Shown here piece after piece: positions 1,356 through 63,661 of a stretch of 64,000 bases of DNA. Below the pieces are notes generated by a model, which saw only the letters and a program-made list of their open reading frames with translations, was not told the DNA's origin and did not search any database. The DNA lies in contig CAVNZM010000010.1 of NCBI GenBank assembly GCA_963693365.1, positions 5,276,060 through 5,340,059 on the forward strand, given 5' to 3'. The DNA is from Amoebidium appalachense. Lineage: Eukaryota > Protista > Ichthyosporea. The stretch's first letter is position 1. Every line of letters starts with the position of its first letter. The translations under genes and the position numbers were made by a program.

Positions 1356-1870
1356 GGGGAGGGGGGGGGTAGGCATGGTATTTTGCACATGAGGGTGGGT
1401 ACAGAGCAAATGGCCTTGCTCTACCTCTTCTAACGCATGTGTGTTTTTGTGATTGCAGAGGCAGGCAGTGCACAGGCTAAAGCCAACCTGGGCCAGATGT
1501 ATGAGAAGGTGTGTGGTACTCCATCCAAAGCTTGTTTGTTTGTTTGTTTCTTTGTTTGTTTGTTTGTTGTTTGTTGTCTTTCCTTCCTGCTTTCCGTGTC
1601 TCGTTCTTTCTGTCTTTCTTTCTTTCTTTCTTCATTTCTCTCTTTCCTTCCTTTTTTTCTTTTCCTCTGTTATTTGTTTGGGTGTTTGCTTGCTTGTTTG
1701 TTTGTTCGTTTGTTGTCTTTCCTTCCTTCTTTCTTTCTTTTTCTCTCTCTCTTTTTTTTTTTTTTTTTTTTTTTTTGGGTTTGTTTGTTTGTTCGTTTGT
1801 TTGTTTGTTTGTTTGTTTGTTTGTTTGTTTGTTTGTTTGTTTGTTTGTTTGTTTGTTTGCTTGCTTTTAC

Positions 1871-1918
<48 letters not shown>

Positions 1919-2470
1919 ACGCGCGAGAGGTTTAAAGAGTCGAAACCCATGCTTTTGGTGGAGGCATAGGAACCCCCCTGATGATGGGTTCTGTTCAAGT
2001 GTCTTCTGCCTGCACGCTTAAATCGTTTGATTTTGGATTTCCCACCTTTGTGACGCTTTGGTGTTGCTCTTTGTTGTCTCTTCCATATTTCCAACCCTCT
2101 AACGCATACATCCCCCCGTATCGACGGGGGAGCTTACTAGAAGCGCCGTCTCCTGAGTTCCTATCTATATTTTTCTTGCTTCTGCTTACTGCTGCAACTT
2201 TAACCCCCGGCCTTTCCCACTGCCCTTGCCTGCATAAGCAACCCTGCTCGTCTCTGATCAAGACGGGTGACCTACCCATGTTCAAGTGAAACAGTATCTG
2301 AGTTGGGTTTCGTTAACGAGGTGAATAGGTCGAAACTCGGGTACTGTGGATGACGTGGGCTCCCCCTGAGGATGGGCTCTGCTTATTATGCATACTCTTT
2401 ATGTATGGCTTGCATTCTGCATCGTGTTATCCGTTTGTTCTTGTGTACTTCGTACTTTTTGACGCATTCA

Positions 2471-2504
<34 letters not shown>

Positions 2505-2822
2505 CCCGTCCCTTCCCCCGGCAATCTAGCATTGTGTTCTATTCACAAATAGTTCCTTCGTCCTTCGATTGCTCTGTAACCCATTCTAACCCCCCCCCCC
2601 CCCCTCCCCCCCCCCCCTTTTTTTTTTGTTTTCTTCTCCACACACATAGACAAACACAAATATACGCACTCCCATCAAACCACGACAGAAAAGTCTTTTT
2701 CTCAAGTGTGCAGTGTGATGCAATCTGTTCTTTGTGTGTACTCTTGTGTCAGTTACTGCGCTCTAACCCCCCCCTTCCCTTCCCCCGTCCCCCCTTCCCC
2801 CCGTCCTTCCTCTTCCATTCTT

Positions 2823-2907
<85 letters not shown>

Positions 2908-3276: not shown

Positions 3277-4109
3277 CTCCCACGCACACACAGAGAGACA
3301 CACATACCTTCGGACCCTCTCTCCCACCCCTTCTCTCCCAGCACCGCCCGCCTGCTTTTCCAATCCGCCTGTATAATGATATGTAATAATAGTCATAGTG
3401 AATAGCAGAGATGTCAAGTGACATGCCCAGCCGGTGCGATGTCAGATTGACATCAACATGACGTCACAACGAAGTATGATTCAAAGACTTTCTTCGTCTG
3501 TTTATTCAGCGAATTCCTATTTAGTGCGTCGCCAATCCCCATGTAACGGAATCCTGGAGATATTCCAAATTATTCGTAAGCACTCTGACAATAAACATGC
3601 TGGCGTGTCTGTGTGTGCCTGTATGTTGGCCTGTTATTTTGCATGTACATGTGTGGGTACCTGGTGCACATATTTGCATACTACCCCGACCCCACAAATC
3701 TATAAATAGGACTACATTGACGCATCGATTCTATTTTTAGGACCACACTGACTCACCGATTCTATTTTTAGGACTACACTGACCCACCGATTCTATTTTC
3801 ATGACTACACTGACTCACCGATTCTATTTTTAGGACTACCGGGAGGCGCTGCGGCTGTTCCAGATGGCGTCCAAAGAGAACCACATTGACGCCCAGTACA
3901 ACCTCGGCCTCATGTTCTTCAGTATGCCTCCCCCCCCTCCCCCCCCCCCCCCCCCCCCCCCCCCCGGCCGGGGCAGAGAATGGGCTCTGCTCATGATGCA
4001 TGCATGCTCTTTATGTGTGCTTTGTGATCTATATTACGTATCAGTCATGGATGTGTACTTCGTACTCTGTAAAACATCCTAACAACCCCCCCCCCCCCCA
4101 AAAAAAAAA

Positions 4110-5310: not shown

Positions 5311-5765
5311 CACAGCCTAGCCCTGTACAGTCTTGCCCTTATGTACCATCAGGGGGTGGGCACCGTCCGCAACCCAACCCTCGCTGTCACTGTATGTCCC
5401 CCCCCCCCCCCCCCCCCCCCCCCCGGGGGGACCCTTCCGCCCGTGGGAGGATGAGATGTACTTATGATCCTCATGATTTGTGTTTAATCTCAGTCGTCAA
5501 ATGTTCATTGGGTTTCCCGTTGTGAATGTGTATTTTGGTAACAAATTCTACCCCCCCCCCCCCCCCCCCCTCCCCTCCCCGAATGACTTGGGCACCCCCT
5601 CGAGAATGGGCTCTGGTGGTCATACGCCATCTTTATGTGTGCTTTGCACTCTCCATTGTGTAGTCCATCATGAATGTGTGCTTTGCACTCTCTGAAGACC
5701 CCCCCAGCCCCCAGCCCCTACCCCACCCTACACCCCTGTGCCCCTTCGCACTATGTAGCACATTC

Positions 5766-16041: not shown

Positions 16042-16845
16042 ATGGCACCATCAGCAGTTGCCACCTCGTTGTCATCAGTGGTTCCAAAATCCCCCAAACT
16101 TACAAAGCACCTCACTCTTCTATCTGAACAAGATGATGATGAGTACTGTGGTGTGACTATTTATATTCCCCTGAAGTCCGAGAAGACCAAGAGCCCGCCT
16201 CGTAGCCCGCTAGACCGGAACGAGCGCCCTGCACGCCCTCTTCTCAGACGACAGGTATCTTTTGCTGACTCAAATGGCCTAAATCTCACACACATGAAAG
16301 AGTTCGATACCCGGGACCCGCCGAAGCTTTGCAACAAGGACCTGACCAAGCAAGAATACGACTCTCTGAAACGCAGCGCGTCTGTGCCGGATCTCTCGCT
16401 CCTGAGCATTGGGAACAAGGATTTTGGTCAACTACCCAAGGCTACACTTTCTCTCGTGCGCGAACCCTCAAGCGACAGGCGACATGCTCAAGCGGCAAGC
16501 CTGGTCTCCATTCGTTATGATGCCTTTAGGCGCACTCTTTTCGGGTCTGTAGCAGTTGAAAACAGGGCATATGAGAAAAAGGTTTGGCTGAGATACACGG
16601 CGGACGGCTGGAATACATTCAATGACATATACGCCAAGTATTCGTGGACCCGTCACGGTTATCGTGGACCGAGCACGGATTATTTTTCGTTCCAGTTCAA
16701 CATGGACTACGGCCTTTTGGTGCCTGGAATCCAGCTTGAATTTGTTGTTGCGTGTGAGATGGGAGAAGTGACGTATTGGGACAACAACAATGGGCAGAAT
16801 TTTGCTGCAGAGGTCACCTCGGCCAAATGCACCAACATGTTTTAG
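16042..16845 (+). CDS. Protein phosphatase 1 glycogen-targeting regulatory subunit (PPP1R3/Gac1-like, CBM21 domain), intronless
   Basis: 267-aa ORF with PP1-docking motif RRQVSFADSNGLNL (RVxF). CBM21 motifs GSVAVENRAYEKKVWLRYTADGWNT, DYFSF, LEFVV, YWDNNNGQNF. Confidence 0.92.
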   Translation: MAPSAVATSLSSVVPKSPKLTKHLTLLSEQDDDEYCGVTIYIPLKSEKTKSPPRSPLDRNERPARPLLRRQVSFADSNGLNLTHMKEFDTRDPPKLCNKDLTKQEYDSLKRSASVPDLSLLSIGNKDFGQLPKATLSLVREPSSDRRHAQAASLVSIRYDAFRRTLFGSVAVENRAYEKKVWLRYTADGWNTFNDIYAKYSWTRHGYRGPSTDYFSFQFNMDYGLLVPGIQLEFVVACEMGEVTYWDNNNGQNFAAEVTSAKCTNMF

Positions 16846-20576: not shown

Positions 20577-28859
<8,283 letters not shown>

Positions 28860-33308: not shown

Positions 33309-33728
33309 CGCCTCTTCCCGCCCGTCCGCCCCACTCTCCCCGTCTTTGAATTGTTCTGAGAATGAATTTGGAATTCCTTTTGTACGTAATAATAAGACGT
33401 TTTGCTGACATGACATCCCCCCTGTGCAGTGAATGTGAAGGACAAGAGCGACCAGTCCCCCCTGCACTACGCCATCTACAACGGCCACAGGGACGTTCAG
33501 TTCCAGCTGCTCATGGCTGGCGCCGCAGTTGACACCCGAAATGTTTCAGGCAACACCCTGCTCCATGTCGCCGCGTACCACAACCAGATTGAAATTGCGG
33601 CCGCCATTCTCCAACGCTCGCCAGAACTCGTCCATGTTCGCAACCACAAATTTCTTTCCACCCCGCTGGAATGCGCTGTGCACAAGGGCCTGACTGAGAT
33701 GGCTCGCCTGCTGTCAGGTGCCTCCTGA
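31048..33728 (+). CDS. Ankyrin-repeat protein with Ser-rich N-terminus and an unassigned central domain
   Basis: Exons 31048-31765, 32053-32267, 32476-32746, 33007-33231, 33430-33728, in phase. Ankyrin repeats GMCPIHYAAKGG, DQSPLHYAIYNGH, GNTLLHVAAYHNQ, STPLECAVHKGL. Start codon uncertain. Confidence 0.82.
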
Positions 33729-37720: not shown

Positions 37721-37860
37721 GTTTCTCCTGAATTTGCTGAACACAAAGACTCAAAGGGAACACATACCCCCCCCCCCCCCCCCCCCCTCCCCCCCCCCCC
37801 TTTCTCCTGAATTTGCTGAACACAAAGACTCAAAGGGCACACATACCCCCTCCCCCCCCC
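37721..37860 (+). repeat. Tandem duplication of about 46 bp plus a C-tract
   Basis: TTTCTCCTGAATTTGCTGAACACAAAGACTCAAAGGG(A/C)ACACATAC-poly(C) at 37722 and 37801. Confidence 0.9.
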
Positions 37861-38034
37861 TCCCCCGTCCCCCCCCACCTGTCTCCCTCTGCCTTCAGCC
37901 CTCCCCCTCCCCCAACTCCTACATCTCCTCGACATCGAGACAAGAAGCGCTCTGCTCTTCCGAATGCTCACTTAATCTGTCACGTACAGAGACAGGTTTC
38001 TACCGTGGCTGCCGGCCAGGCACAGTGAGGGGCC

Positions 38035-63661
<25,627 letters not shown>

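What the first reader, a model, noticed from the sequence alone, without database searches (positions are those of the whole stretch)
2228..2392. Pseudoknotted RNA with hammerhead-like core segments in a non-canonical order, supported by compensatory changes, inside an intronic element
Seen, comparing copy B (2228-2392, +) with copy C (27145-26975, -): the sequences differ but pairing is kept. (i) Closing stem ATAAGCA/TGCTTAT versus CATGAGCA/TGCTTATG. (ii) Hairpin CTCGTCT-loop-AGACGGG in both. (iii) CCCATGT/ACGTGGG versus CCCAAGT/ACTTGGG (U-G to A-U). (iv) ACAGTATCTGAGTT (2291-2304)/AACTCGGGTACTGT (2334-2347) versus TGC-TCTGAGTT/AACTCAGA-c-GCA. (v) A crossing pseudoknot helix GACCTA (2269-2274)/TAGGTC (2326-2331) versus GACCC/GGGTC (U-A to C-G). 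G-U pairs indicate the C-tailed strand is the RNA. Established: hammerhead ribozymes have a CUGANGA core, stem II followed by GAAA, and a stem III-UH cleavage site; Penelope-associated ones often read CUGANGAUG. Seen: GGTC-GAAAC, CTGAG-TT pairing with AACTC, and CCC-CTGAGGA-TGGG (CTGATGA in subfamily A) are all present, but in the order cleavage strand, GAAA strand, CUGA strand, which fits none of types I-III. Inference: an undescribed structured RNA, possibly a permuted hammerhead variant or a new self-cleaving motif. Catalysis is not shown.
Basis: partly seen in the sequence, partly recalled or inferred. Interest (0 to 1): 0.88.

Follow-up and report, generated by a model that had tools for sequence, protein, structure and literature searches.

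The report
Split-core hammerhead ribozyme in jumping repeat
A short, high-copy mobile repeat in this genome carries every part of a self-cutting RNA (a hammerhead ribozyme) in scrambled order, predicted to fold with two extra helices spliced into its catalytic core; the same layout ends several Naiad jumping genes reported to lack such a ribozyme, and cutting itself is untested.

Summary
Copies B (2234-2386, +) and C (27138-26980, -) keep all five helices. The strand order is not new: it is type SGC (Eckert 2023). What I found in no paper is the wiring. The crossing helix is hammerhead stem II, and its 5' strand lies about 100 nt upstream of CUGAGGA, so the A9-G10.1 link is opened by the closing stem and a hairpin. 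Predicted cut: after U2304 (GUU). Read by eye in Craig 2021's supplement, 10 of 54 Naiad Penelope-like consensus records show this layout with different, still complementary helices, and 8 show intact type CSG; that paper reported no canonical hammerhead in Naiads. The window's repeat is high-copy, 5'-truncated, poly-C-flanked and partly tandem; no partner reverse transcriptase was found. Caveats: cleavage is untested, stem I is weak, a rough model says one copy alone cannot reach the active shape, and an ordinary SGC refolding is a live rival. The scan had already noted this fold in five findings from other (animal) genomes.

The parts
2234..2244 (+). P1 5' strand (closing stem 2234-2240, plus CCC 2242-2244)
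   Evidence: pairs with 2374-2376 and 2380-2386; mean pair probability 0.93 and 0.84
2246..2268 (+). P2 hairpin, ending directly before G10.1
   Evidence: 6 of 6 pairs in B, 5 in C, U-A to C-G; duplex -8.8 and -10.0 kcal/mol
2275..2284 (+). P3 5' strand and 2-bp canonical stem of the kink-turn; equivalent of the stem I-II interaction helix
2285..2290 (+). predicted kink-turn, bulged strand: 3-nt bulge, then G, A, A
   Evidence: G.A, A.G, A.G in B; G.A, A.G, U.U in C; definition from PMC5579392 passages
2291..2307 (+). block S: stem III strand, U16.1 = 2303, U17 = 2304 (predicted cut 2304/2305), stem I strand 2305-2307
2310..2319 (+). small palindromic hairpin in the S-to-G linker
   Evidence: a different hairpin at 27059-27050 in C
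2326..2347 (+). block G: stem II 3' strand, GAAA 2332-2335, stem III strand
   Evidence: the only ribozyme-family match below threshold lies here: Rfam Hammerhead_1, 14.2 bits, E 3.6
2348..2359 (+). kink-turn unbulged strand and P3 3' strand
2363..2372 (+). stem I strand 2363-2365 and core C3-A9 (CUGAGGA 2366-2372)
   Evidence: N7 is G in B and C, U in A
2373..2386 (+). U after A9, then P1 3' strand; 2375-2380 is also the alternative stem II strand of the rival fold
2387..2503 (+). 3' tail of the element and poly-C run
   Evidence: shared 3' end in several copies
2150..2224 (+). 5' extension of subfamily B, also high-copy; true 5' end not found
   Evidence: depth similar to the module in runs X1-X3; no second copy in the window
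1919..2111 (+). copy A, 5'-truncated, divergent subfamily; GAAA at 1942, CUGAUGA at 1978-1984
   Evidence: model R1 hit 1927-1997, E 0.0004
26870..27145 (-). copy C, 276-nt unit (G10.1 27101, U17 27067, G12 27035, C3 27001)
27146..27226 (-). 81-nt duplicate of the unit's 3' tail fused directly in front of copy C (partial tandem)
   Evidence: 97.5% identical to 26950-26870
1509..2906 (+). inferred host intron of a Sel1-repeat gene holding A and B in sense
   Evidence: GT-AG ends and in-frame flanking exons; Sel1 Pfam hits in other exons, below the curated cut-off

Best explanation
This is one copy of a high-copy, poly-C-flanked mobile repeat, likely a non-autonomous Penelope-like element related to Naiads, whose RNA is predicted to fold into a non-circularly permuted hammerhead ribozyme that would cut itself after U2304. 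Shown in sequence: all core nucleotides (C3-A9, G12-A15.1, U16.1, H17, G10.1-C11.1) and stems I-III, in S-G-C order. Inferred: the fold is a type-CSG hammerhead reopened between A9 and G10.1; P1 and P2 would stack on each other in a four-way junction, leaving stem II stacked on the core. Inferred: P3 is the stem I-II interaction helix, joined to the far end of stem III through a kink-turn. Inferred, weakest step: one unit alone is probably too constrained to reach the active shape, so cutting would need two units (the loop of one docking on the junction of another, or the 3' half of an upstream unit pairing with the 5' half of the next). That would cut tandem transcripts to unit length while sparing monomers, circles and most host pre-mRNAs. 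A partner reverse transcriptase would then copy the RNA from the tail into poly-C tracts.
For: Core and helices in B and C; 0 full sites in 400 shuffles (post-hoc descriptor). Divergent subfamily A keeps GAAAC and CUGANGA and changes only the free N7. In runs X1-X3 the paired stem II changes 2273 T>C and 2327 A>G occur at 1.6/2.9%, 4.9/4.4% and 4.6/4.5% (my division depths; unphased). None of the 16 variant rows falls on a core nucleotide. By eye, 10 of 54 Naiad consensus records (ctenophore, cnidarians, a crustacean, octopus) have the same order P1-P2-II-P3-S-G-P3-C-P1 with different complementary helices and an intact core; three have no linker base at the junction, one has the same U.U pair after A9, and the two octopus records have a kink-turn-like loop at the same place in the opposite orientation; 8 others are intact type CSG. 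Types SGC and CSG cleave in vitro (PMC10085705). Element behaviour fits Penelope-like elements: 10 of 12 loci in the window are 5'-truncated, 7 of those 10 have at least 18 C in the 25 bases upstream, and copy C is a partial tandem; Craig 2021 lists these traits and (C)n/(CA)n targeting for Chlamys. Penelope hammerheads are proposed to work as dimers (PMC4209133).
Against: No cleavage data. Stem I is 3 bp in B and has a C-C mismatch at its second pair in C (-4.3 and -2.2 kcal/mol). The site is GUU, and U17 is paired in 88% of the nested ensemble. A rod model leaves a 19-36 A gap against 6-13 A of linker for a monomer (crude, recalled dimensions); Eckert noted a like conflict for some SGC ribozymes, so it neither kills the fold nor proves the dimer. 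No reverse transcriptase or GIY-YIG hit in the 118 of 358 frames scanned, so the Naiad link rests on RNA architecture alone, and the (C)n target is Chlamys-like while I saw no such motif in the Chlamydomonas Chlamys hits shown. In a lizard Penelope-like element the hammerhead needs protein, is dispensable for insertion in vitro, and no RNA-seq reads end at its site (PMC11167929). No pile-up of 5' ends at 2305 among the loose ends shown (24 shown, 958 not shown). Naiad pairings were read by eye, not computed.
Confidence: 0.62

Rival explanations
1. The active form is an ordinary type-SGC hammerhead with a 2-nt insert after A9: 2375-2380 pairs with 2326-2331 as stem II, and the pseudoknot with 2269-2274 is an off state of a two-state switch.
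For: The alternative helix has 6 of 6 pairs in C (-7.2 kcal/mol) and 6 of 6 in A with the majority base C at 1989 (pairs read by eye). Eckert allows inserts of one or two nucleotides. It frees P3 from the top of stem II and so eases the monomer geometry. The stretch after CUGANGA is well conserved among copies.
Against: Only 4 of 6 pairs in B (-3.9), where the upstream partner gives 6 of 6 (-8.8); it also costs P1b (-4.8). The acroporid, Morbakka-1, octopus and crustacean Naiad records that I checked by eye cannot form it.
Confidence: 0.15
2. The module descends from a hammerhead but no longer cuts in this family; it persists as the protein-binding handle for the partner reverse transcriptase, or simply as a recently amplified relic.
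For: Weak stem I, GUU site, monomer geometry; sense insertion in an intron is tolerated; cleavage is dispensable for insertion in vitro in another Penelope-like element.
Against: Three diverged subfamilies keep the catalytic bases while helices and linkers change.
Confidence: 0.18
3. It is a different structured RNA (SINE head, box C/D-like RNA or new ribozyme class) whose hammerhead-like words are coincidental.
For: The kink-turn and UGAUGA-like words resemble box C/D RNAs; Rfam hammerhead score is far below threshold.
Against: All core bases sit with the three stems in the right geometry; no Rfam family matches; intact CSG hammerheads occupy the same place in sister Naiad records.
Confidence: 0.05

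Closest known systems
Type-SGC hammerhead ribozymes (HRIMA-1 and variants; Eckert et al. 2023, PMC10085705; read parts 1-6 of 8, supplement by term search only)
   Same: Order S, G, C; full core; pseudoknotted stems; an extra helix tying stems I and II.
   Different: Those are about 80 nt, from metatranscriptomes, with blocks assumed uninterrupted. Here block C is split between A9 and G10.1 by two helices, the module is about 155 nt with a kink-turn, and it lies in a eukaryotic genomic repeat.
Type-CSG hammerhead ribozymes (same paper; two metagenomic sequences)
   Same: Same cyclic order; the window's module is a CSG opened inside block C.
   Different: Termini lie in an added helix P1 next to A9; P3 is joined to stem III on both strands.
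Naiad/Chlamys Penelope-like elements (Craig et al. 2021, PMC8557442; abstract, sections 6, 9, 15, 20, supplement part 1 of 59 and term searches)
   Same: 3' position, 5' truncation, partial tandem, microsatellite target; same RNA layout in 10 of 54 Naiad records.
   Different: The paper reports no canonical hammerhead and only flags HHR_core and HHR_half_core. No ORF is linked here; the target is (C)n as in Chlamys, not (TA)n.
Penelope minimal hammerheads and non-LTR retrozymes (PMC4209133, parts 1-2 of 4; bioRxiv 10.64898/2026.07.22.740005, part 1 of 5 and passages)
   Same: Extra base after A9, G10.1-C11.1, proposed dimer activity, short non-coding units derived from element ends.
   Different: Those are type I; retrozymes there are full tandem arrays, whereas only an 81-nt partial tandem is seen here.

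Membership tests
Hammerhead ribozyme | Core C3-A9, G12-A15.1, U16.1, H17 | tested here: met
   B and C; consensus as in PMC3088659 passage
Hammerhead ribozyme | Pairs 10.1-11.1, 15.1-16.1 and 1.1-2.1 next to the core | tested here: met
   G-C, A-U, G-C in both copies
Hammerhead ribozyme | Stable stem I | tested here: inconclusive
   3 bp in B; mismatch at second pair in C
Hammerhead ribozyme | Site-specific self-cleavage | not testable with these tools
   only assembled contigs were available
Hammerhead types I-III | Circular order C, G, S without pseudoknot | tested here: not met
   order is S, G, C; Rfam 14.2 bits against gathering 34
Type-SGC hammerhead | Block order S, G, C | tested here: met
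   2303, 2332, 2366
Type-SGC hammerhead | CUGANGA contiguous with its stem II strand (at most 2 inserted bases) | tested here: inconclusive
   not met in the favoured fold (strand at 2269); met only in the weaker alternative fold
Kink-turn | 3-nt bulge followed by tandem G.A, A.G between two helices | tested here: met
   sequence pattern in B and C; the kinked shape itself is untested
Naiad/Chlamys Penelope-like element | ORF with N-terminal GIY-YIG, CxC motif and C-terminal reverse transcriptase | tested here: inconclusive
   no hit in 118 of 358 frames; no genome held
Naiad/Chlamys Penelope-like element | 5' truncation, partial tandem, microsatellite target | tested here: met
Non-LTR retrozyme | Tandem units each with a type I hammerhead | tested here: not met
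   not type I; only a partial tandem
Non-LTR retrozyme | Circular RNA in vivo | not testable with these tools
   no raw RNA reads listed

The most novel reading that the evidence does not exclude
A seventh natural hammerhead wiring, broken inside the catalytic strand by a four-way junction and bent by a kink-turn, that cuts only when two units meet. It is the overlooked ribozyme of the Naiad clade, and here it drives a 276-nt circular-RNA element that inserts in poly-C tracts, possibly outside animals.
Probability: 0.35. Interest if true: 0.88.

Novelty: new variant of a known kind. Interest (0 to 1): 0.74.

Why it matters
It breaks the stated assumption that the three hammerhead blocks cannot be interrupted, which limited the family to six orders. 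It offers a direct answer to why Naiads seemed to lack hammerheads: descriptors for types I-III cannot see CSG or split forms. It moves non-circular permutations from a few environmental sequences into eukaryotic genomes at high copy. It gives short constructs with an exact predicted cut site for testing monomer against dimer activity and control by a kink-turn-binding protein.

Tried and rejected
No whole genome is held, so no genome-wide alignment or covariation statistic was possible; the count of structure pairs was not run on two sequences. Rfam: 0 hits at gathering score in the window; 4 sub-threshold hits at 1900-2500. Pattern scans gave 7 loci in viral contigs and 2 in metagenome contigs; on reading, none has the helices, and I treat all 9 as chance. 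No RNA holder is on record ('no RNA holder listed'); run X15, RNA only by guess, holds copy A, which shows nothing about expression. A blind test, predicting the missing 5' part of subfamily A from loose ends, failed because the tool skipped 1893-1933 as repeat. I first dismissed the contiguous stem II in the wrong register; one search corrected this and it now stands as a rival. Host lineage was not determined: three homologue searches found nothing, nor did the solved-structure search, and the representative search was still queued. HDV-like, SAM-I, U3 and RNase MRP readings were considered from recalled motifs and dropped for lack of any Rfam match. Nine literature searches and passages of PMC3088659, PMC13725137, PMC10162972, PMC7936874, PMC544870 and PMC13159263 showed no hammerhead split at A9-G10.1 and no permuted hammerhead in Naiads. 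The library lacks most subscription papers; Lunse 2017 on dimeric Penelope hammerheads was seen only as a title, and Eckert's supplementary figures and the 2026 preprint's supplements were not seen.

Full report
Setting. The window is intron-rich eukaryotic DNA with many poly-C and (CA)n tracts; Pfam finds Sel1 repeats, a CBM21 domain, ankyrins and Piezo. No genome is held and the lineage was not determined. Copy B lies in sense in an inferred intron, 1509-2906, of the Sel1-repeat gene.

The observation. All five helices are at the stated places in B and C. Folding recovers the four nested ones, with modest z-scores of -1.6. Only three pairs change on both sides between B and C, so these two copies alone do not prove the structure. 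A descriptor for the full layout, written after seeing them, finds only B and C in the window and 0 full sites in 400 shuffles. No Rfam family reaches its threshold; the one ribozyme hint is Hammerhead_1 at 14.2 bits over the crossing helix and GAAA.

Reading it as a hammerhead. With G12-A15.1 at 2332-2335, the long helix is stem III, U16.1 is 2303 and H17 is U2304. The crossing helix is stem II, with the usual G10.1-C11.1 pair (2269-2331). The order S, G, C is type SGC of Eckert et al. 2023, shown there to cleave. That paper assumes CUGANGA stays joined to its stem II strand. Here A9 (2372) runs on through one U into the closing helix P1, whose other strand leads through hairpin P2 straight into G10.1. 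The core strand is thus opened by a four-way junction. Between P3 and stem III both copies have a 3-nt bulge and tandem G.A pairs, the kink-turn pattern; that B's third pair, A.G, is the type that folds in magnesium alone is recalled, not checked.

The element. BLAST finds 12 loci in the window: two complete modules and 10 5'-truncated copies, 7 of these 10 with at least 18 C in the 25 bases upstream. Copy C is a 276-nt unit preceded directly by 81 nt of its own tail. Runs X1-X3 each hold thousands of contig pieces that lie on B (2702, 5816, 4143; not copy numbers), and X14 holds 20. Loose ends after copy A are poly-C in all four runs. These traits match Penelope-like elements; Craig et al. 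2021 report (C)n and (CA)n targeting for Chlamys and no canonical hammerhead in Naiads or most Chlamys, while flagging half-cores 35-50 nt apart.

The decisive comparison. I searched that paper's supplement for core words and read the hits by eye. Of 54 Naiad records, 10 show the window's layout: Naiad_Bfor, Naiad-3_Chem, three Acropora, two Morbakka, one crustacean record (by list order) and two Octopus. Their helices differ in sequence yet pair, the core is intact, and stem II always uses the upstream strand; stem I is 4-6 bp in nine and 2 bp in Bfor. Eight more, nematodes by header or list order, are intact type CSG with a long interaction helix round block C. The split form is what results if a CSG is closed at its ends and reopened between A9 and G10.1. 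The count is a floor: line breaks hide some words, I did not see CTGATGA hits 55-62, CTGAGGA 23-25, CTGACGA 23 or CTGAAGA 38-43, and three Clytia 3' ends seen over 600 nt showed neither form. I saw neither form in the Chlamydomonas Chlamys hits displayed.

How it most likely works. In the junction P1 would stack on P2 and stem II on the A9.G12 pair, keeping the catalytic geometry (inference). Stems II and III are coaxial in the crystal structure, so P3 must reach from the top of II to the far end of III. A crude rod model leaves 19-36 A unbridged in a monomer, but a one-strand link, as at the junction of two tandem units, can span it (62 A needed, up to 74 A). I therefore favour cutting that depends on two units, as proposed for other Penelope hammerheads. 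It would release unit-length RNA, spare monomers and circles, and explain the more-than-unit copy at C. This step is the least secure; I put cleavage in some context at about 0.65 and the two-unit requirement at about 0.4.

Against. Stem I is weak, above all in C; the site is GUU and U17 tends to pair with A14. A contiguous stem II using 2375-2380 forms 6 pairs in C and in A's majority sequence but only 4 in B, so a plain SGC fold or a switch remains possible. No partner ORF was found in the 118 of 358 frames scanned. In a lizard element the hammerhead is protein-assisted and not needed for insertion in vitro.

Novelty. Nine searches found no description of this split or of permuted hammerheads in Naiads; subscription papers and some supplements were out of reach. 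I recorded my reading, before the look-up; one search then showed five earlier notes of this scan on the same fold in other, animal genomes. They agree but are not independent evidence. No note was found for this genome or for look-alike DNA, nor for a protist or C-tailed version. Particular to this family are the poly-C target, the GUU site, the long kinked stem III and the possible second fold.

Verdict. A real structured RNA and a new variant of a known ribozyme, untested for cleavage. Interest 0.74.

Noticed in passing
window 39025-63679 (+): Piezo-like gene (Pfam TM1-24, THU and anchor domains), with a 500-codon open frame at 39025-40524; no homologue found by word search.
   Followed up: partly
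window 16297-16842 (+): Open frame with a CBM21 starch/glycogen-binding domain (E 5e-23).
   Followed up: no
window 33414-33725 (+): Ankyrin-repeat exon.
   Followed up: no
window 42726-43251 (+): Diverged direct duplication (about 255-nt period, 72% identical) that includes exon-like sequence and poly-G intron; possible exon duplication in the Piezo-like gene.
   Followed up: no
window 37722-37886 (+): 79-nt tandem duplication ending in poly-C in both units; could be another poly-C-targeted partial tandem.
   Followed up: no
window 2350-2379 equivalents at 3976, 5583, 21531, 26056, 34411, 45514: Many truncated copies begin at or near the element's own C-run before CUGANGA, which suggests 5' joining by microhomology to the poly-C target or stalling at the P3 helix.
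   Followed up: partly
window 1919: Copy A begins 23 nt before its GAAA, within about 4-8 nt of where the cut site would lie by analogy with B and C; one case only.
   Followed up: partly
window 5420-5530 (+): Another short C-flanked insert with a GGAGGAUGAG word and similar tail; perhaps a further subfamily.
   Followed up: no
PMC8557442 supplement, Naiad-1_Chem and Naiad-2_Chem 3' ends: Both lack the hammerhead core but share two conserved, helix-rich segments; candidates for a different self-cleaving RNA.
   Followed up: no
PMC8557442 supplement, records near parts 16-19: Several arthropod Naiad records have CUGANGA in yet other arrangements that I did not resolve.
   Followed up: no
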